NCBI GenBank assembly: GCA_965287045.1
Contig: OZ336886.1
Coordinates: 10,168,001 to 10,232,000, forward strand
Source of the DNA: Carcharhinus amblyrhynchos
Taxonomy: Eukaryota
Direction of reading: 5' to 3'
Length of the DNA: 64,000 bases
Below the pieces are notes generated by a model. It searched no databases. It was not told the DNA's origin and saw only the letters and a program-made list of their open reading frames with translations. Each line of letters starts with the position of its first letter. Position 1 is the stretch's first letter. Shown piece by piece: positions 3,875 to 57,148 of this stretch. The translations under genes were made by a program, and so were the position numbers.

Positions 3875-4140
3875 TCGGTGCTTGTCCTCTGATGTGGATG
3901 TAAAAGATTTCATGACCCCATTTGGAGAAGGAAAGAGGAATTCTCTTCAGTGCCATGTCCAATAACTGTCCCAGTACCAACATTGTTGAACGAATGATTT
4001 TGTTATTGTTTATGGGAGCTTCCTGCATGCAAATTGAATGTTAAATGTTACACGAATAATTGGTTTGGAGGTATTTGAGTGAGTGGCTGCTTTTAGGTGT
4101 GCTGAGATCATGAAAGACACTTCATAAAACAAACTTGTCA
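3875..4140 (+). mobile_element. Decayed Deu-domain SINE (SacSINE1-like), 3' part; 5' part probably at about 3190-3243, split by the CR1
   Basis: gtggatgtaaaagatttcatg...gggagcttcctgcatgcaaattg...atgaaagacacttcataaa resembles the recalled DeuSINE core and tail. Confidence 0.65.
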
Positions 4141-5583
4141 TTTTAATAGTGGTGCTTAAAATTTTAGGATATAGTACATGAGCAATTGAGACATGGTCCT
4201 GCAACCAGCGTTGCATGCCTGTAAGGGAAAATAGTGATCTGGATGGAGAAATCCAGGCTCCATTTCAAAGAGACCCTGGGCAGGAGTGGTGGGGGGTGGG
4301 GAGGAAACGGGGGTCAGGTCATGAATTACAGAGATCAGAAACTCAAATTCAGCAAGGCCCTTTGATTTGACTCCTGAGTACAAAGACACCCAATTTTCAT
4401 TGCTCTAACAGCCTTAGCCCACAGTGTGCAAACCACAATTTTATGGAGGAGTGTCAATGCTTGTGAAGGATGGAGTTAGGTCAATTTAAGTATAATGATC
4501 CAAAGTTATTTATTCCCAAGCACTTAAAAATTAAAAGAAAACAGTTTGCAGCTTTCATTAAGTGAAAAAGAAAGACCCTGCTGCTAGACGACAGTGAATG
4601 GCAGGCCATCCGGTGTAGCTTACAATAAACTATTAGGTACCTGTTTTTGCAATTTCCATAAATGCTACTGTTTACATTTTCCAAGATTTGTTATTATTGC
4701 TAAGTTTGTTATGAATGTTTGGCTTAGTTTCAATATATCCAAAATGACTTATCTCAGCATGGAACTGCATAGACACTTAGATTTGCACTTTTAAATAATT
4801 TATTGAAAGATTAGCTATCTTCAGTGTGGTTAGTGAGATAGATGTTTGTTATTATGACAGATTAATCACTTGAGGGAATTTACATTTTACATCAGTTTTA
4901 TGAATGAGAGATTTTTCAGTATCAAGTATATGTGAATATTAGTATTAATATCTGCACGAACAGATACTAATAGTTTATTGTAAGCTGTACCGGATGGCCT
5001 GCCATTCGCTGTACTCTAGCAGCAGGGTCTTTTTTTTTCACTTAATGAAAGCTACAAACTGTTTTTTCTTTTAATTTTTAAGTGCTTGGGAATAAGTAAC
5101 TTTGGATCGTTATACTTAAATAGACCTAACTCCGTCCTTCACAAGCATTTACACTCCTCCATAAAATTGTGGTTCGCACACTGTGGGCTAAGGTTGTTAG
5201 TGCAATGAAAATTGGGTGTCTTTGTACTCGGGAGTCAAATCAAATGGCTCTGCTGAATTTGAGTTTCCAACTTCTGTGATTCATGACCTGACCCTGTCCC
5301 CCATCCCCCACCTCCCCCACACAAATACCTGCCCAGGACCTGTTTGAAATGGAGCCTGGATTTCTCCATCCAGATCACTATTTTTCCTTACAGGCATGCA
5401 ACACTTGTTGCAGGACCAAGTCTCAATTGCTCATGTACTGTATCCTAAAATTTTAAGCACCACTATTAAAATGACAAGCTTGTTTTATGAGGTGCCTTTC
5501 ATGATCTCAGCACACTTAAAAGCAGCCACTCACTCAAATACCTGCAAAACCAATTGTTCGTATAACATCCAACATCCAAATTG
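4030..5583. repeat. Long inverted repeat: arms about 4030-4650 and 4953-5583, spacer about 300 bp
   Basis: Arms are reverse complements along their length. The same peptide (QDxVSIAHVLYPKILSTTIKMTSLFYEV) appears in ORF 4010..4216(-) and ORF 5396..5635(+). Confidence 0.97.
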
Positions 5584-24400: not shown

Positions 24401-25696
24401 GTAATCAATGTAAAACTACTATATTGCAAGTTGAAATCCATTTAATATAAAATGCAGTCATTGTTTCAATCAATTTTGAGTAAATGCTTTTTGTGTATGC
24501 ATTCTAACTTTTCAGGTTGTTGCTAAAACAATTCTTTTGATCCTCTTGTTTGACATGGTTGTCATGGATTTGTATCCAAATACTCAAAGTTAGCAGTTTC
24601 TTTTTTTAGCATACTTTTAGAGAGGCAATTGCTAAATCGCTTCCATCTCAGTGCTCTACAATTGGCCAATGGAGAGACCTTTGATATCTCGGTGAATCAA
24701 GGGATTTGGAAAGCAGGCGGAAAAGTGTTGTTATACCCAAGATCAGTTATGATGATATTGAATGGCAGGCTGTGTACTCTGCACCTGCTCCTATCTCTGA
24801 TGTTCTTCATTGGACTACAATGATTTAGTTGCATTTCATTCATTTAATGTTTGCATTGATTTAACATGAAGCATGCAATCTTACGACACCTCATCCTGCC
24901 TGATGTTTTAATGAGGCGAGGTGGTAAGATCAGGGTGCCCTTTCTGAGCTCAAAGCCGACTTCAGTATGTCTTGACGTTATCGTCTGGGCTTGAAGTTAA
25001 ATGCTCGCCGGGTGAACTTCTCACTGATGAGAATCATAGCTGGTCTCCATCAGCTGAGACCAGAGATGATGCCTTGATCTGGATGAACTGGAAGCCATTG
25101 AAGCCACTGGGTGGTCAGGGGGCAGTGCCAGGTTGGCCTTGGCGCTGCCCGGGCACCATAAATGCCAGGGGCAGTGTCAAGGGAGTAGGGCCTGAGACGG
25201 TGCAGAGACTGAATGGGGGTGAAACAATGGGGGTTGGGAAGAGGGGAACTCTGCAGGGGTGGTGATCGGGGAGGGAAAGGGAACTCTGCAAACAAGGGTG
25301 ATTGGGGAGGGAAGGGCAGAACTCTGCAAGGGTGATTGGCAAGTGATGAATGTGATGTCTGTGGGCCAGATGGAGGCTGGTAGAATAGCACAGGGGGTGT
25401 GGGGTGATCAGCAGATGAGGAGGGGTGTCTTGATGTCTGTGGGGGAGGTGGGGGGTGGCAGTAGATCTCCCATGACACCGAGAGGTTGGGGCACTTGTTA
25501 AATGGCACCCTAAGCGCTCAGCAGCTGGCACCACCAGAGCTCAGGCTCTGCTGTTCCCCCTGCATTGAATGCCATAAGATTGCAACTCATTGACAAAACC
25601 AATGCAGTTCTCTCTCATTTTCTCACTCATTCGGCACTTAGGGTGTGATCTTATGAAAAAATTCCAAGTGTCTCTCTTCTCATCCACTGACCTCCT

Positions 25697-27835
25697 TTGT
25701 CATAGCTTCTCCGCTCTGGGGAAGTACTGGATGATAAAGGGTACTCTGTCCACCATGTCCCGTGTTTGTCTTCTGAGGAGGTCGGTGGGGTTTTTCGCTG
25801 TGGCGTGTTGGAACTTTCGATCAATGAGTTGAGTGCCGTATCCTGTTCTTACGAGGGCGTCTTTCAGCGTCTGAATGTGTCTGTTGCGACCCTCCTCATC
25901 TGAGCAGATCCGATGTTTACGGAGGGCTTGTTCGTAGGGGATGGCTTCTTTAACGTGTTTAGCGTGGAAGTTGGAGAAGTGGAGCATCGTGAGATTATCC
26001 AGGGGCTTGTGGTACAGTGAGGTGCTGAGGTGACTGTCCTTGATGGAGATGCATGTGTCCAAGAATGCAACCGATTCTGGAGAGTAATCCATAGTGAGTC
26101 TAATGGTGGGATGGAATTTGTTGATGTCATTATATAGTTGTTTCAGTGATTGTTCACCATGAGTCCAAAGGAAGAAAATGTCATTGATGTATCTAGTGTA
26201 TATCATCAGTTGAATGTCCTGTGTGGTGAAGAAGTCTTGTTTGAACCTGTGCATGAAGATGTTGGCATATTGAGGTGCGAATTTGGTCCCCATGGCTGTT
26301 CTGTGTATCTGGATGAAGAACTGGTTGTTGAAGGTGAAGACATTGTGGTCCAGGATGAAACGGATGAGTTGTATAATTGCATCTGGAAACTGGCAGTTGT
26401 CAGTGTTGAGTACTGAGGCAGCTACAGCAATGCCATCATCATGGGGGATGCTGGTGTAGAGTGCTGAGACATCCATTGTGACAAGGAGTGCCCCTGGTTC
26501 AACTGCTCCACGTGTGTTGAGTTTCTGCAGGAAGTCCGTAGTGTTGCAACAAAAGCTGTACAATGGGTTTCAGGATGCCCTTGACATAGCCGGAGAGGTT
26601 GTCGCACAGGGTCCCATTGCTCGATACAATGGGACGGCCGGGTTTGTTTGTCTTGTGTATCTTCAGGAGGCAGTAAGATCTCCAATGTGGGGAGTACGTG
26701 GGATGAGAGCACGGAGGGTGCTCTACAGGTCTGGATCAAAGGTCTTGATCAGTCTGTTGAGTTGACGGGTATGTTCTTTGGTTGGATCTGCGAGTAACTG
26801 TCTCTGGTGTTCTGCATTGTTCAGCTGTCGGTACACTTTTTTGCAGTGATCAGTATGACGATGGCCCCTCATTTGTCTGCTAGTTTGATGACAATGTTGC
26901 GGTTGGTCTTGAGAGCGGGGGTGGCATTGCGTTGTGCTTGAGTGATATTCAGGGCTGTCTTGTGAGTGTGGCCAATGAATCTGGTATCGACGCATCTCCT
27001 GATGACTAGGGCATACATGTCAAGTCGAGGGCAGCGGCCTTCCGGAGGAGTACATTTGGACTCTTTCATCTTCGGTTGCTGCACCACAGATCTCTCTGTC
27101 GGCTGTTCTGGTTTATTGGCAGTCTCATTGTGTTCGCTGTTGGCCTCTTGGGGTTTGTGGAAGAACTCCCGCAGCCTCATTTGCCTAATCAATTCCTCTG
27201 TGTCTGCTGCGAGACTGATGGGGTCCATTTTTGTGGTGATTTCATCTGGTTGAAGTGTGTAGTCTGACAAGTTGACATTGGAGTTCCCTGCAGTGGCACC
27301 TGTGGAGGGCTAGGTTGCTGCTGGTGGTGATGCCGAGTTTCTCAAGTTTCCTGTTCTTGGTGTGCATGTAGGTGGTGTAGTTCCTTTGTCTCGTCTGCTT
27401 GGCAGAGTTTCGCAGCTGGCCTGCGTCCTGAGCGCAAGTTGAGAATATGGATTCTATCGTGGTTTCCAGGACACGGCGTTTGCTGTAGAGCTAGTGTTTG
27501 AAGTGGTTGAGGAGTGTGAGAGAGGTGCGATGGCAAAGTCTGTCAGCATTGTCTGTGTTGTAGGTTGACCTGAGTGGGTTTGTGATCTGTAGTCCTTTCG
27601 ATCGCTAGTCTGCTTTCGTGCATTTTTGTAGAAACTTGATGCTTGTGTCGATATGCGCAATCTTCTTGGAGATCCTCTCCACTTGGAGCCGGCAGTTTGC
27701 AGTGTCGATGGTAGCCATGATGTGGAGATGCCGGCGCTGGACCGGGGCATACACAGCAAGAAGTCCCACTACACCAGACCAAAGTCCGACAGGTCCACCT
27801 GGTAGCAAATGCCACTAGCCCTCAGAGCACCACTT
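25697..27835 (-). mobile_element. Penelope-like retroelement, 5' part (ATG at 27718 through RT), frameshifted and lacking GIY-YIG
   Basis: MATIDTANCRLQVERISKK N-terminus; NRNIVIKLADK; RT motifs LVTMDVSALYTSIPHDDG, TAMGTKFAPQYANIFM, YTRYINDIFFLW. Confidence 0.95.
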
Positions 27836-27977
27836 ACCCACGAGCTGGAGCCGTTAGCTGTGTCACTCAGGTGATGCCTCTCCACTGCCTGTGCACCCGC
27901 TTACTTGCCCTTCCTGCTGCTGGTTTTGCGTGGTAAAAGGGTGGATTCCAGGGCCTCTAATGGCAGCGGGGTGTGAT

Positions 27978-28065
27978 CTGACGAAGGAGTAGCGCTCCGA
28001 AAGCTAGTGGTGTTTGCTACCAAATAACCTGTTGGACTTTAACCTGGTGTTGTGAGACTTCTTAC
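27978..28065 (+). ncRNA. Inverted Penelope terminal-repeat copy with a minimal hammerhead ribozyme core (27978-28006)
   Basis: CTGACGA-a-GGAG tagcg CTCC-GAAA-GC-TA: core motifs, 4-bp stem II and palindromic AGCT in place of stem III. The stem I 5' strand is truncated. Confidence 0.75.
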
Positions 28066-28298
28066 GGTGGGATGTGAAGCCAGACCATGAGAATTCTGTC
28101 AGGGATTTAATCAGGATAGAGGCAGAAAGGTAATAAGGTCATCACCTGCCACCAAATCCACCCAGGTGTGGCCATTAAATACCACCACTCTTTCCTTTCG
28201 GCTTTCCTGAAGGTAACAGCCACTTTGGGGCTGTTTGAAGTGGGAACTGCTGAGTCCACCTGCCAGTGGCAGTTTATTTTTGAAAAAGCGACATCATA

Positions 28299-30667: not shown

Positions 30668-30954
30668 GTGACCCTCTTTAACCCCTCTAACCTGTGCTTC
30701 GCCCTCTCTTCACACACATTATCTGTACTTTTAAAACTTGATTATCTGTGAAGGCTCTCATTCCAACCATTATCTTGCAATTTGAGTTTGTGTCTATGTA
30801 TGTCCTGTTTGTGAACACAATTGCTCACTCACCTGAAGAAGAAGTGAGACTCCAAAACCTCGTGCTGCCAAATAAACCTGTTGGACTTTAACTTGGTATT
30901 TTGAGACTTCTTACTGTGCTTATCCCAGTCCAATGCCGGCATCTCCGCATCATG
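30668..30954 (+). mobile_element. Solo Penelope terminal repeat with decayed hammerhead
   Basis: Reverse complement of 52392-52720; cacCTGAAGAagaagtgagactccAAAAcctcgtg; ends ccggcatctccgcatcATG. Confidence 0.85.
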
Positions 30955-31794
30955 AATTTTCCAAGCCCACCTTCTTCAGGAATGTGGAGCATACATTCCC
31001 ACAGAGAACACCATGACAACATTGGGGCATTCGGGGTAAAGACGGCGAAGTTTCAGCTTTATGGCACTAGCTGCCGTGGGATAAGATTAATCCAATGTGA
31101 ATATCAGTGAATGGGAGAGCAAATAAATGAGTAAATGTGCATGGTGGTATGGTAGACCGGTGGTTAAAGTAAGCAGGTTGTGTAACAGGTAGGTTGGGTG
31201 GCAGATGGGTGAGATGGTGTGTGGTTAAGGTGAATATGTGGGTGAGGTGGCCGGCGAACAGGGTGTGTATGTGTTTGAGGTTGGCGGATGGTCAGGAGGC
31301 GGTCAGGTTAGGAGATGAAGTCAGGCCGGGCGCTAGTCAGGTCTGGTCAGGGTGGTAGCCATGTGACCAAGTATTCGCAGATCATTGTGTCGGGTTGGCA
31401 GTTAGTCCAAGGCTTGTGTTTAGGGGTTAGTTATGGATAGATTTCAGTTTGGTGGGTTTCTGTGTGAGTGATAGCGGGGGGGTGGGGTCAGTTTTGTAGT
31501 TACCCAGAAATTAGACTGCGATCTTTTGTCTAATGTTTTCTGGGTAACTATTCAGAATTACCCGAAGTCTCCAACTCTAAATCAGAGTTAGACACATTTG
31601 GGGAGGGCCCAGGAAGTGGGGGCAGGGAAATTGTCCAATTTCAAACCCTTGGAGGTTCACCTGTCAAGACATCAGCAGAGTCTCAGCACATATGTTGTGT
31701 CAGATATCTGATCTGCTATGATCTGGAGACTGGCAGATCTGGACCATTAATTAATAGAAAAGTCAAATGCAGTATTTCATTCTTGTGGAGTGTG

Positions 31795-52391: not shown

Positions 52392-53885
52392 GATGATGTG
52401 GAGATGCTGGCATTGGACTTGGGTGGGCAGTAAGTAGTCTCACAACACCAGGTTAAAATCCAACAAGTTTATTTGGTAGCAAAAGCTTTCGGAGTGCCGT
52501 TCCTTCATCAAGCGATTGCAGGATTTGTTTCACAAACAGGGCATATGTAAACACAAACTCAATTACAATGGTTGGAATGCGAGTCTTTACAGGTAATCAA
52601 GTCTTTACAGGGTGCGGAAAATGTGAGTGGAGAGAGGGTTAAGCACAGGTTAAAGAGATGTGAATTGTCTCCAGCCAGGGCAGTTAGTGAGATTTTGCAA
52701 GCCCAGGCAAGTCGTGAGAGTTACAGATAGTGTGACATGAACCCAAGATCCCAGTTGAGGCTGTCCTCATGTGTGCGGAACTTGGCAATCAGTTTCTGCT
52801 CAGCGATTCTGCATTGTCGTGTGTTGTGAAGGCCGCCTTGGAGAACGCTTACCCGAAGATCAGAGGCTGAATACCCGTGACTGCTGAAGTGTTCCCCGAC
52901 TGGAAGGGTACACTCCTGCCTGGTGATTGTTAAGCGGTGTTCATTCACCTGTTGTGGTAGTGTCTGCATGGTCTCCCCAATATACCATGCCTTGGGACAT
53001 CCTTTCCTGCAGCGTATCAGGTAGACAACATTGGCCGAGTCGCAAGAGTATGTACTGTGTACCCGGTGGTTGGTGAAGCCATCTCATCTCACGTGAGATG
53101 ATGGCATCCATTTCAATGATCCAGTACATCTTGCAGACGTTGCTGTGGCAAGGTTGTGTGGAATTGTGATCACTGTTCTCCTGAAGACTGGGTAGTTTGC
53201 TACGTATAATGGACCTGTTTGAGGTTGTGCAGTTGTTTGAAGGCAAGTAGTGAGGATGTGGCCTTGGTGAGATGTTCGTCTTCATTGATGACATGTTGAA
53301 GGCTCCAAAGAAGATGTCGTAGCTTCTCCGTTCCGGGGAAGTACTGGACGACAAAGGGTACTCTACCGTGTCCTGTGTTTGGCTTCTGAGGAGGTCTGTG
53401 TGGTTTTTCGCTGTGGTGCGTCGGAACTGTTGATCGATGAGTTGAGTGCCATATCCTATTCTTACAAGGGTGTCTTTCAGCATCTGGATGTGTCTGTTGC
53501 GATCCTCCTCATCTGAGCAGATCCCATGTATATGGAGGGCTTGGCCATAGGGGATGGCTTCAACATGTTTAGGGTGGAAGTTGGAGAAGTGGAGCATTAT
53601 GAGGTTATCCATGGGCTTGTGGTCCAGGGAAGTGCTGAGGTGACCGTCCTTGATGGAGATGTGTGTGTCCAAGAATGCAACCGATTTTGGAGAGTAGTCC
53701 TTGGTGAATCTGATGTGAGATGGAACTTATTGATGTCATCATGTAGTTGTTTTCGTGATTGTTCGCCATGAGTCCAAAGGAAGAAAATGTCATTGATGTA
53801 TCTACTGTACAGCGTTGATTGAAGGTCCTGTGCAATGAAGAAGTCTTGTTCGAACCTGTGCATGAAGGTATTGGCATATTGAGGT
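52392..53885 (-). mobile_element. Penelope-like retroelement, 3' part (RT end, GIY-YIG, terminal repeat with hammerhead remnant)
   Basis: LYSRYINDIFFLW; NEHRLTITRQECTLPVGEHFS...AEQKLIAKFRTHEDSLNWDLGFMSHY; minus-strand ttgatgaaggaacggcactccgaaagctt at about 52484-52512. Confidence 0.93.
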
Positions 53886-54690: not shown

Positions 54691-56908
54691 AAGTTTGGAA
54701 GGGGAAGATGACAATATTGATTGGTCTGAGGGAATTGTACTGGTCACAAGAAGTTTCAGTCTGTTAATGAGTGTACAAGTCACAGATTCACTTAAGTCCA
54801 CCATTTTGAACCAATTGGTTTAAATATTGTTTAAATGCACTCAGTATAAGATCAAAAAAGGGTCAAAGAACATGGAAGTTCTACTTGTTTCAAACTAGGA
54901 CTTAAGGTCACCACAAAGGTCGATGATTCCAAGTAGAAAAGCTGAGATTAGCCACTTTACCAGTACAGATGGAGTATCTGGTGAGATGTCCTTGCTACTG
55001 ATGTAAGTCATCCATGAAAAAGGCACAAATGAAATTAGACATGGAACATATAAAGCAGTTGCCTTTGGAAAGTTAGTAGATTTGCAATTTATCCAATCAG
55101 AACATGATTGTATCCTTTTAACAAAACTAGACATCTTTAATCTTACTGTTAATGAAACGTGAATGATATCAGGTGATAGGAGTTTGAGAGATTAGAAGCA
55201 GATAGTCTTAAAGCTACATTGACAATTTGCTCATGCCTCTCAGCACAGATTAAAAATTGTACTTAAGGATGCGAGGTTAGGCGATGAAGTGTACAGCAGC
55301 TTTGTAAAGAGATTAGTGAAAAATGTAATATATGCAGAAAGTACCAGAGGATACCATCATGACTTGAACAAAGTCTCTCATTAACATGGCCCTTATTGAC
55401 TTTGTAGCTATGGACCTAAATGTGTGGAACAATGACAGAAACATCTCAATTTCACATCTCGTAGACATGGTAACATGATTATGTCTTTCTGCAGTAATAC
55501 ATGGTAAAGTCAGAAGAATGGTTGTAGATAAAATAATGGAAGATGGATTGTTACTGGACTGGAGGCACTGGCTAAATTCCAAATTGACGTGGTTGGGGAG
55601 GTGGAAGTTGTCAATGAGAAATTTGGAGACGTGCGAAAAAATGAACACTATAGCTGAAAGGACGCTGGTTATGAGGAAACATTGTGACTGGATCTCATAT
55701 AGCCACTAGCTTAGATACGATAATAGAGATTAATGTGGAGGCTTGATTTTCACTTGACGAGAGCAGGTTGCAACCAAAGCAAGGAAAAAGAATTAGTGTC
55801 ATCTCTCCAGGAAGGCAAAGTCATGCAAACATTTTGCTGCAGAAGGTTTAAGTGAGTACTGGACACTAGTGCTGAAAGAGGTTTGCATGGCCTCCCAGTA
55901 GAAAAGCAACCTAATCCAACATGCATGTTTAGACTGCTAAGTCACCGCCCCAGGGAAGTGCCAGCATCTCAGTGAAGCACAATTCTACGGCAATCCCTCG
56001 GAATGACATAATTTGTCGCCTCACCACCGTCACTCCCACCTGTGCTCTTGCAGTTGTCTGTCAGCCAATCAGTTTTTTGCCTTCCATGCCTAGGTGCTGC
56101 AGTCCAAAGTCAGATTTTCTAGGCCCATAGCTATACAAGAACATCCTGCAAGGTTATTTGCAGTCTCCCCTCTGAAAGTCAGCAATCTTCTATCAGCCAT
56201 GCTATAGCCACTGGGGTTACAGTATGTAGGAGCTAGGCAAAGGCACCTGCAAGAGATGCACCAAAGTGAATGCACAAGGGTGCCTGTTTGAGTTTTGCAA
56301 GGAATATTAGCTATTTTGTTCAATGAATATTCTGCTTCACTGAGACAAACTGAGGAGCTGTCAATGACTTGTGATAAGCAGGAAAGCATTTTATTGGGCA
56401 TTGTCCCAAGAGCTGTCACAGCCTTTTCATCACAGTCCTCATCATCAGTATCTTGTAGAATCTCAGGCTTCTGAACCTGTTGGCTTTGTCACTTCCTTTC
56501 TCTTTCTCCATGTCCTTCTGAAATATCAAATACCCTTAAACATTCAGACTTCAGCCTTGGTCACATTGTAACTAGGTGTCTGCAATGGCTGTTGTATCAT
56601 ATTCATTTATTTCTACTTGTCCTATCAATTCAGCCATCTTGTAATAGAGAAAAACATAAGAACTAGGAGCAGGAGTAGACCATTTGGAGCAAGCTTGCTC
56701 TGCCATTCGGTAGGATCATGGGTGATCTTTTTGTGGACTGCTGTGTAAAGAGCTCTTCACCCTGTCTTTTTACTATTTGTCCCTACTCTGGCCTTACTTG
56801 CTGATGTATTCATACATTCTTGCCCTGCTTACCATTACCCACATTGCTATCCTTTACTATTGCCTTCTCCTTTCCCTTTAGCATTCCAAATCTCCCCTCA
56901 CTTGTAAA

Positions 56909-57148
56909 TGGTAGCCATGGTGTGGAGATGTCAGCTTTGGACTTGGGTAGGCACAGTAAGAAGTCTCACAACACTAGGTTAAAGTCCAACAGGTTTATTT
57001 GGTAGTACAAGCTTTCAGAGTGTGTCGCCCCTTCATCAGGTGAGTGAACCTGACTATCTGATGAAGGCCCAGCGTGCTGAAAGCTTGGGCTACCAAATAA
57101 ACCTGTTACACTTCAACGTGGTGTTGTGAGACTTCTTACTGTGCTCAC
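56909..57148. mobile_element. Palindromic non-autonomous Penelope-derived element flanked by a 12-bp direct repeat
   Basis: Arms gcacagtaagaagtctcacaacac...ccttcatcag / ctgatgaagg...gtgttgtgagacttcttactgtgc; ctcacttgtaaa at 56897-56908 and 57144-57155. Confidence 0.85.

What the first reader, a model, noticed from the sequence alone, without database searches (positions are those of the whole stretch)
27737..27831. Penelope terminal repeat with a clustered A>G hyper-editing signature fixed in the genome
Seen: compared with four other copies of the repeat in this window (27978-28065, 30830-30954, 52392-52512, 56909-57148), the copy just upstream of the Penelope ATG has about 14 T>C changes on + within about 95 nt. 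These are A>G on the element's sense strand: GAAAGC>GAGGGC, CCAAATAAACC>CCAGGTGGACC, TTTAAC>TTTGGT, CTTACT>CTTGCT, CCAGTCCAACG>CCGGTCCAGCG. By my count 12 of the 14 changed As have a 5' U or A, and most GA sites are unchanged. Established: this is the ADAR neighbour preference, and reverse transcriptase reads inosine as G. The changes stop short of the ATG and are confined to the segment that these elements carry as inverted repeats. They also destroy the hammerhead GAAA core. Inference: an ADAR-hyperedited Penelope RNA was reverse-transcribed into the germline, a fossil of host editing acting on PLE hairpins and ribozymes. Caveat: the nearby inverted arm (27978-28065) is unedited, so the original pairing partner may have been another copy.
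Basis: partly seen in the sequence, partly recalled or inferred. Interest (0 to 1): 0.85.

Follow-up and report, generated by a model that had tools for sequence, protein, structure and literature searches.

The report
ADAR-edited Penelope RNA fossilised in DNA
This jumping-gene copy has about half of the adenosines in its terminal repeat changed to guanosine on one strand, as do at least a dozen other copies in the genome, most likely because the RNA-editing enzyme ADAR edited their hairpin RNAs before these were copied back into germline DNA.

Summary
Confirmed and extended. The copy has 14 sense-strand A>G changes in 27737-27831 (17 of 27 A to the 5' end), against 14 of 595 in its own ORF. 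The haplotype is unique in the genome and is present in DNA contigs of runs from three studies, so it is neither subfamily nor assembly error.

It belongs to a rare class: at least 13 other loci. In six hairpin insertions both arms carry A>G on the same strand, inside the stem (101/174 A) and not outside it (5/40). One edited hairpin inside a CR1-type LINE has an unedited paralog with the same junctions: arms 108/184 A>G, loop 5/42, flanks 27/407. Pooled 5' neighbours follow the ADAR order (U 0.62, A 0.56, C 0.32, G 0.29).

Corrections: 11, not 12, of 14 have 5' U/A, and the bias is not significant in this copy alone. The neighbouring inverted arm is not the partner; the partner was probably lost by 5' truncation. 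ADAR itself is inferred: no RNA data. Precedents exist in retroviruses; this scan noted similar cases in LINEs of other genomes.

The parts
27737..27831 (-). Hyper-edited terminal repeat (pLTR) of a Penelope-like element: 14 A>G on the sense strand; hammerhead GAAA box (27823-27820) now reads GAGG
27832..27852 (-). 5' end of the copy: hammerhead stem II and CUGANGA box, with 3 (by script) to about 6 (by eye) further A>G; alignment ambiguous; 5' truncation point at about 27852
   Evidence: letters of runs X5 and X6 at 27836 and 27846; junction with host DNA
25698..27718 (-). Unedited, broken ORF of the element, ATG at 27718-27716, ending at 25698 without the 3' part
   Evidence: 14 A>G of 595 A; stop-free frames
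25700..26569 (-). Reverse transcriptase fragment
   Evidence: Pfam RVT_1, E 1.2e-6, 28.9 bits, just under the curated cut-off of 29.6
27853..27977 (.). Host DNA between the two repeats; one paralog elsewhere at 84%
27978..28069 (+). Unedited inverted repeat copy with intact hammerhead core; probably a separate solo insertion (8-of-9 direct repeat at 27968-27976 and 28069-28077, seen by eye); not the editing partner
   Evidence: 0/21 A>G and 0/24 T>C; spans reference columns 284-376 whereas focal edits reach 391
56903..57148 (.). Ordinary unedited hairpin insertion of the same repeat (internal control)
52393..53885 (-). Unedited family copy with 3' ORF, UTR, hammerhead and tail (internal control)
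30685..30955 (+). Unedited family copy (internal control)

Best explanation
This copy is likely the DNA product of a Penelope-like RNA whose terminal repeat was paired in a hairpin, hyper-edited by ADAR (inferred) and then reverse-transcribed into the germline, where the inosines would be fixed as G. Step 1 (shown): the family inserts very often as a diverging inverted pair with one long and one short arm. Step 2 (inferred): transcription through such a pair, from the element itself or from a LINE or SINE that carries it, gives a long double-stranded stem. Step 3 (signature shown, enzyme inferred): about half of the A in the stem are changed on the transcribed strand, on both arms, while loops, tails and flanks are spared. 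Step 4 (shown for other loci, inferred for this one): the edited RNA is retrotransposed to a new site. For the focal copy cDNA synthesis probably ran through 2 kb of unpaired ORF and the edited sense arm and stopped near 27852, so the antisense partner was not copied. The dead hammerhead is a by-product.
For: Focal: 17/27 A>G against 14/595 in the ORF and 1/37 T>C; unique haplotype; present in contigs of runs from three studies. Hairpins are common: 15 diverging pairs and no other orientation within 2 kb among the first 100 of 37,909 exact matches; 19 of 20 background pairs have one long and one short end. Six hairpins have both arms edited on one strand: L010 13/24 and 7/28, L025 9/22 and 9/23, L064 49/73 and 49/90, L096 14/23 and 13/21, L108 8/19 and 11/20, L090 8/13 and 12/21; 101/174 inside the stem against 5/40 outside, P=1e-7; in 6 of 6 the edited strand ends in the longer arm. 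L064 against its unedited paralog L154: arms 57/99 and 51/85 A>G, loop 5/42, tail 0/9, LINE flanks 12/125 and 15/282; shared sequence starts inside the LINE and stops at its 3' tail; the LINE is in sense to the edits. L081 and L226 are edited and share junctions with unedited L224. Solo edited arms cut at the 5' side, like the focal copy, exist: L072 59/87, L091 10/21. Neighbour order over 25 edited arms: 5' U 109/175, A 146/261, C 79/250, G 44/152, flat in 92 background arms. A triple-edit pattern has 10 matches against 0.2-1.0 expected. Literature: Penelope RNA is massively edited in lizard, and hyper-editing is abundant in elephant shark (PMC5625713, passages).
Against: The focal copy's partner arm and donor were not found; its neighbour bias alone is not significant (P=0.26). 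The 5' G depletion is milder than in RNA data sets: 0.29 of GA sites are changed, 0.41 in antisense arms where it is not significant (P=0.37), and 18/39 in L064. The 25 arms were picked by eye as edited, which makes the rates conditional. The two-edit pattern (36 matches) is not clearly above chance (11-34 expected); only 12 of 41 arms with that pair have 4 or more further A>G. L109 and L114 carry T>C in a long arm without an edited partner, which the simple polarity rule does not explain. L010's private loop has no second copy in the assembly. The focal 3' end at 25698 is not a usual element end and has no visible target-site duplication.
Confidence: 0.88

Rival explanations
1. Same editing, but written back in place: a transcript of a resident hairpin is edited and its cDNA overwrites the source locus by recombination, without a new insertion. 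This would apply to the short hairpins with unique flanks and possibly to the focal copy with its neighbouring arm.
For: L010, L025 and L090 have clean 11-13 nt target-site duplications, both arm ends at or near the usual element ends, and flanks with little or no match among the loci held; L010's loop has no donor elsewhere; the focal copy folds into a long stem with the neighbouring arm (z -6.55); PMC11167929 proposes that the element can nick its own pLTR.
Against: L064/L154, L081/L226/L224 and L072/L068/L218 are dispersed copies with shared junctions, which is new insertion. In the focal case the neighbouring arm is unedited and 3 of 14 edits lie outside its reach. Donors can be lost or diverged over the age implied by several percent divergence.
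Confidence: 0.07
2. The deamination or miscoding happened on DNA or during cDNA synthesis: ADAR on the DNA strand of an RNA:DNA hybrid, a DNA adenine deaminase on hairpin DNA, or RT misincorporation under skewed dNTP pools.
For: Penelope pairs could form DNA hairpins; T>C in long arms of L109 and L114.
Against: Attack on first-strand cDNA would read as T>C on the sense strand, and RT error would not stop at stem borders; observed changes are A>G on the carrier's sense strand and spare loop, tail and flanks. A double-stranded DNA process would hit both strands of each arm; own-strand T>C is 0-4 per edited arm.
Confidence: 0.03
3. Ordinary divergence, a G-rich subfamily, GC-biased gene conversion or an assembly artefact.
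For: A T>C-rich subfamily variant exists at a few columns (L065, L087, L090); L064 holds a long G run that may be mis-assembled.
Against: Haplotype unique; background arms have at most 2 A>G (92 arms); gBGC would raise T>C equally; contigs of other runs carry the focal letters.
Confidence: 0.02

Closest known systems
ADAR hyper-editing of an inverted repeat in avian retroviral RNA (Hajjar & Linial 1995; Felder et al. 1994), seen only as summarised in the review PMC12925331 (passage); the original was not held
   Same: Nearly 50% of A changed to G in an inverted-repeat region of a reverse-transcribed RNA.
   Different: There single virus isolates; here an endogenous non-LTR element, many independent germline loci, shared between differently labelled organisms, with unedited paralogs in the same genome.
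APOBEC 'DNA editing' of LTR retrotransposons fixed in vertebrate genomes (Knisbacher & Levanon, PMC4866542, passages)
   Same: Host deaminase footprint fixed in genomic retroelement copies as strand-biased clusters.
   Different: G>A from cytidine deamination of cDNA, along the element; that screen covered LTR elements and found other mismatch types very rare. Here A>G, limited to RNA stems, in Penelope repeats.
RNA-level hyper-editing of Penelope elements in lizard (Porath et al. 2017, PMC5625713, passages)
   Same: Same element class as a major ADAR substrate; G depleted upstream.
   Different: Seen in RNA reads against an unedited genome; here the edits are in the genome.
Poseidon element PAc of Anolis (Frangieh et al. 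2024, PMC11167929, parts 1-2 of 4 read)
   Same: pLTR with hammerhead, two internal RT start sites that define a 30-40 nt tail, both target strands nicked and extended, ribozyme not needed for insertion.
   Different: No editing reported in the parts read; the start sites here lie just before and at the ATG, not about 110 nt into the ORF; clade membership not tested.
Earlier notes of this scan e1-8045164 (L1 copies) and e1-7810917 (inverted-repeat transposon inside a LINE)
   Same: Sense-strand A>G clusters in germline retrocopies, read as ADAR footprints.
   Different: Other genomes and elements; unchecked AI notes. Here the substrate is the element's own insertion geometry, and three carrier types are seen.

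Membership tests
Penelope-like element (EN+) | Reverse transcriptase in a single ORF behind the terminal repeat | tested here: met
   Pfam RVT_1 E 1.2e-6, just below the curated cut-off; ORF is broken by stops
Penelope-like element (EN+) | C-terminal GIY-YIG endonuclease | tested here: inconclusive
   Missing from the truncated focal copy; no Pfam hit in frames of L176 or the window copy; a GIY-YIG-like stretch in L176 is recognised from recall only
Penelope-like element (EN+) | Minimal hammerhead in the pLTR (CUGANGA, stem II, GAAA, palindromic helix III) | tested here: met
   Read directly in unedited copies, matches the description in PMC4209133; no Rfam hammerhead hit; cleavage not tested
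Penelope-like element (EN+) | Two alternative 3' ends (tail) | tested here: met
   Ends cluster at reference columns 370-384 and 405-419
Penelope-like element (EN+) | Clade (Poseidon, Neptune or other) by RT phylogeny | not tested
   No tree built
ADAR hyper-editing footprint | Dense A>G cluster on one strand only | tested here: met
   17/27 A>G against 1/37 T>C in the focal copy; for other loci
ADAR hyper-editing footprint | Confined to double-stranded stem, both arms on the same strand | tested here: met
   Six hairpins, 101/174 against 5/40; L064 against L154. For the focal copy itself the partner is missing, so only confinement to the repeat is shown
ADAR hyper-editing footprint | 5' neighbour preference with G depleted | tested here: met
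   Pooled 5' G 44/152 against 334/686 for the others, P=9e-6; P=7e-4 in sense arms without the columns used for searching. Not significant in the focal copy alone or in antisense arms alone
ADAR hyper-editing footprint | Inosine or A>G seen in RNA of these hairpins; dependence on ADAR | not testable with these tools
   Needs stranded raw RNA reads or an enzyme test
APOBEC DNA editing | G>A clusters on the sense strand | tested here: not met
   No G>A scored in the focal repeat (1); changes are A>G

The most novel reading that the evidence does not exclude
The Penelope enzyme can write an edited transcript back over its own source locus, so that hairpins with unique flanks (such as L010, L025, L090) were rewritten in place from ADAR-edited RNA: heritable RNA-templated change of resident germline DNA, beside the ordinary new insertions. 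The edit patterns would then also serve as barcodes of single germline RNA molecules and show how Penelope builds its inverted repeats.
Probability: 0.12. Interest if true: 0.93.

Novelty: new variant of a known kind. Interest (0 to 1): 0.74.

Why it matters
It shows a route by which A-to-I RNA editing becomes heritable DNA change in a vertebrate: the ADAR counterpart of the known APOBEC footprints. It implies ADAR activity in cells that contribute to the germline and gives a dated record of its sequence preference. It also makes an open question testable from genomes alone: how Penelope elements make their inverted repeats. Edit patterns label the template. Mirror insertions whose halves share edits (L003: 19 shared, 4 not) point to one template used from both target strands, and L226 joins an edited and an unedited half in one insertion. 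Screens of LTR elements alone would miss the class, and such copies can look like RNA editing in RNA-seq.

Tried and rejected
Neighbouring arm as partner: rejected (unedited, too short), although the fold is stable. A LINE subfamily carrying the L064 hairpin: the junction pattern has 26 matches, but of 24 other loci aligned none shares the loop or right flank, so they look like independent insertions at a favoured target; only L154 is a true paralog. Donor of L010: not found (the second hit L222 has no element). Donor of L072/L068: not found; the pattern gave only a third truncated copy, L218. Laying four runs on L010 showed the insertion's edges in X1, X6 and X9 but no listed contig across the edited core, so it did not decide between new insertion and rewriting in place. 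Run X4 has no cover at 27834-27957; a hole proves nothing. No RNA holder listed. 25698 as a recurrent internal RT start: rejected, other copies run through it. Single-molecule barcode reading of L081: weakened, since its halves share 12 of 19 edits, within the range of unrelated loci (23-73%; up to 83% for the related pair L068/L072), and L226 shares them too. T>C pattern: of 12 matches only 8 arms at 7 loci could be scored at both chosen columns; 5 arms have 4 or more further T>C. Rfam gave nothing relevant. Both-strand TpA hypermutation (note e1-9889545): excluded by strand bias.

Full report
Observation. The window (G000:C17:10168001-10232000, a 2.9 Gb assembly) holds a retroelement on the minus strand, ATG at 27718-27716, ORF broken and ending at 25698, with a weak Pfam RT hit. 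Upstream lies a repeat with a minimal hammerhead. Against other copies, column by column, the focal repeat has 14 A>G on the sense strand in 27737-27831 and 17 of 27 A up to 27845, but 1 T>C of 37. Its ORF has 14 of 595. Ninety-two background arms have at most 2 A>G each; they came from loci chosen for likeness to unedited sequence, so their 1.7% rate may be low, but P stays at 3e-11 at a 10% rate.

Not a subfamily, not an artefact. The best other matches are 81-87% identical (40 scored of 1822 candidates). Contigs of public runs carry the stretch: X1 with 1 other letter in 284, X6 (organism B) with 5 in 292, four of them placed off the edited sites, and X5 (organism A) with 15 in 299, eight placed off the edited sites. 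X1 may be the assembly's own sample. The edits therefore look older than the split between these samples.

The family makes hairpins. An unedited 24-mer has 37,909 exact matches. Among the first 100 listed there are 15 diverging inverted pairs within 2 kb and no other arrangement. The 3' ends fall in two clusters about 40 nt apart, and 19 of 20 background pairs have one long and one short arm. This fits the two RT start sites and the extension of both target strands reported for the anole element (PMC11167929, parts 1-2 of 4).

A class of edited copies. A pattern that demands three of the focal-type edits has 10 matches where 0.2-1.0 are expected. A two-edit pattern has 36, not clearly above chance. 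Of 41 non-focal arms that carry this pair, 12 have four or more further A>G and 3 have four or more T>C; totals are 139/914 A>G against 56/1166 T>C. Clear loci besides the focal one are L003, L010, L025, L064, L072, L077, L081, L090, L091, L096, L100, L108 and L226. That is a lower bound, since the patterns need exact matches elsewhere. The class is rare: of the order of one in a few thousand copies.

Both arms, one strand, stem only. In six simple hairpins the sense arm has A>G and the inverted arm has T>C, which is A>G on the same strand. Inside the stretch covered by the partner 101 of 174 A are changed, outside 5 of 40. In 6 of 6 the edited strand ends in the longer arm, the usual 3' end. 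L010, L025 and L090 have 11-13 nt target-site duplications. Over 25 arms picked as edited, the 5' neighbour rates are U 0.62, A 0.56, C 0.32, G 0.29, and flat in the background. G depletion upstream is the published ADAR mark (PMC5625713, PMC2873906; passages). It is milder here and not significant in antisense arms alone.

Edited copies with unedited paralogs. L064 (C4) and L154 (C17) share the hairpin's loop junction, its target-site duplication and 2.4 kb of a LINE. The shared part starts inside the LINE, which continues upstream in L154, and stops at the LINE's 3' tail; the flanks translate to RT motifs on the edited strand (the label CR1-type is recalled). From L154 to L064: arms 57/99 and 51/85 A>G, loop 5/42, tail 0/9, flanks 12/125 and 15/282. 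This is a 5'-truncated retrocopy of a LINE transcript whose passenger hairpin was edited; L154 is the donor or a sister. Second set: L081 and L226 (C3) carry edited arms around a minisatellite piece, and L224 (C16, near arrays of that minisatellite) has the same junctions unedited. Third set: L072, L068 and L218 share one element-to-SINE-array junction and are each cut at the 5' side inside the sense arm, L072 with 59 of 87 A changed (the label SINE is recalled); no donor was found.

The focal copy. It resembles the solo edited arms L072 and L091. The DNA at 27853-27977 is host sequence with one 84% paralog. The inverted copy at 27978-28069 has no edits, covers reference columns 284-376 while focal edits reach 380, 385 and 391, and has an 8-of-9 direct repeat at its ends (by eye), so it is probably a separate insertion. 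The likely history: an RNA with antisense arm, loop, sense arm and ORF was edited in the stem; cDNA covered the ORF and the sense arm and ended near 27852. The partner, the donor and the reason for the 3' end at 25698 are not shown. The GAAA box is hit in most edited copies; ribozyme mutants insert normally in vitro (PMC11167929), so this is no barrier.

Results against the simple picture. L109 and L114 have T>C in a long arm with no edited partner. L010's loop has no donor, which leaves rewriting in place open for hairpins with unique flanks. Mirror halves share edits strongly in L003 (19 shared, 4 not) but in L081 (12 and 7) no more than unrelated loci do through hot spots. The 26 loci with the L064 junction motif are not one carrier subfamily.

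What is known. A-to-G hyper-editing of an inverted repeat in avian retroviruses is on record (review passage, PMC12925331; original not seen). APOBEC footprints are fixed in LTR elements, where other mismatch types were very rare (PMC4866542, passages). Penelope RNA is a major editing target in lizard (PMC5625713). ADAR1 restricts L1 without needing its editing activity in HeLa cells (PMC5224506, passages). Minimal hammerheads and opposite-strand pairs in Penelope elements are described (PMC4209133, passages). Eight searches aimed at germline-fixed ADAR edits in retroelements listed no paper reporting this; I saw listings and abstract starts only for most hits, the library lacks most subscription papers, and no supplements were read. 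This scan has unchecked notes on similar cases in L1 and in a LINE-borne hairpin of other genomes, none on this sequence or genome.

Verdict. A real, repeated, strand- and structure-specific footprint that works like retroviral ADAR hypermutation, fixed in a vertebrate-type germline through a Penelope element's own hairpin insertions. New variant of a known kind; interest 0.74.

Noticed in passing
L003:1045-2876 and L081:531-1932: Mirror-symmetric insertions in which both halves carry an edited sense arm, host spacer and edited antisense arm; L081 has a 12-nt target-site duplication around the whole 1.4 kb (by eye). The element mobilises read-through RNA with host sequence.
   Followed up: partly
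L226:358-1793: One insertion that appears to join an unedited half and an edited half, suggesting two different RNA templates; it lies 47 kb from L081 and shares its edits.
   Followed up: partly
L072, L068, L218: Three dispersed copies with the same element-to-SINE tandem-array junction, each truncated inside the element's sense arm.
   Followed up: partly
one search matches (L191-L217): 26 loci share the same target-to-element junction, a likely favoured insertion motif; five on contig C39 are near-identical to each other in scoring.
   Followed up: partly
L109:1437-1591, L114:1345-1563, L105:1417-1632: T>C-rich long arms, or both arms T>C-rich; may be re-mobilised copies of earlier edited antisense arms, or subfamily variants.
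   Followed up: no
L064:1430-1465: A long G run replaces the hammerhead core; editing plus slippage or an assembly error.
   Followed up: no
window 4064-5548: Nested long inverted repeats (arms of 221, 231 and 104 nt, 91-94% complementary), a further potential double-stranded RNA substrate.
   Followed up: no
window 25641-25657 and 27969-27985: A 17-nt direct similarity (15 of 17) on either side of the element; could be chance or a remnant of a duplication.
   Followed up: partly
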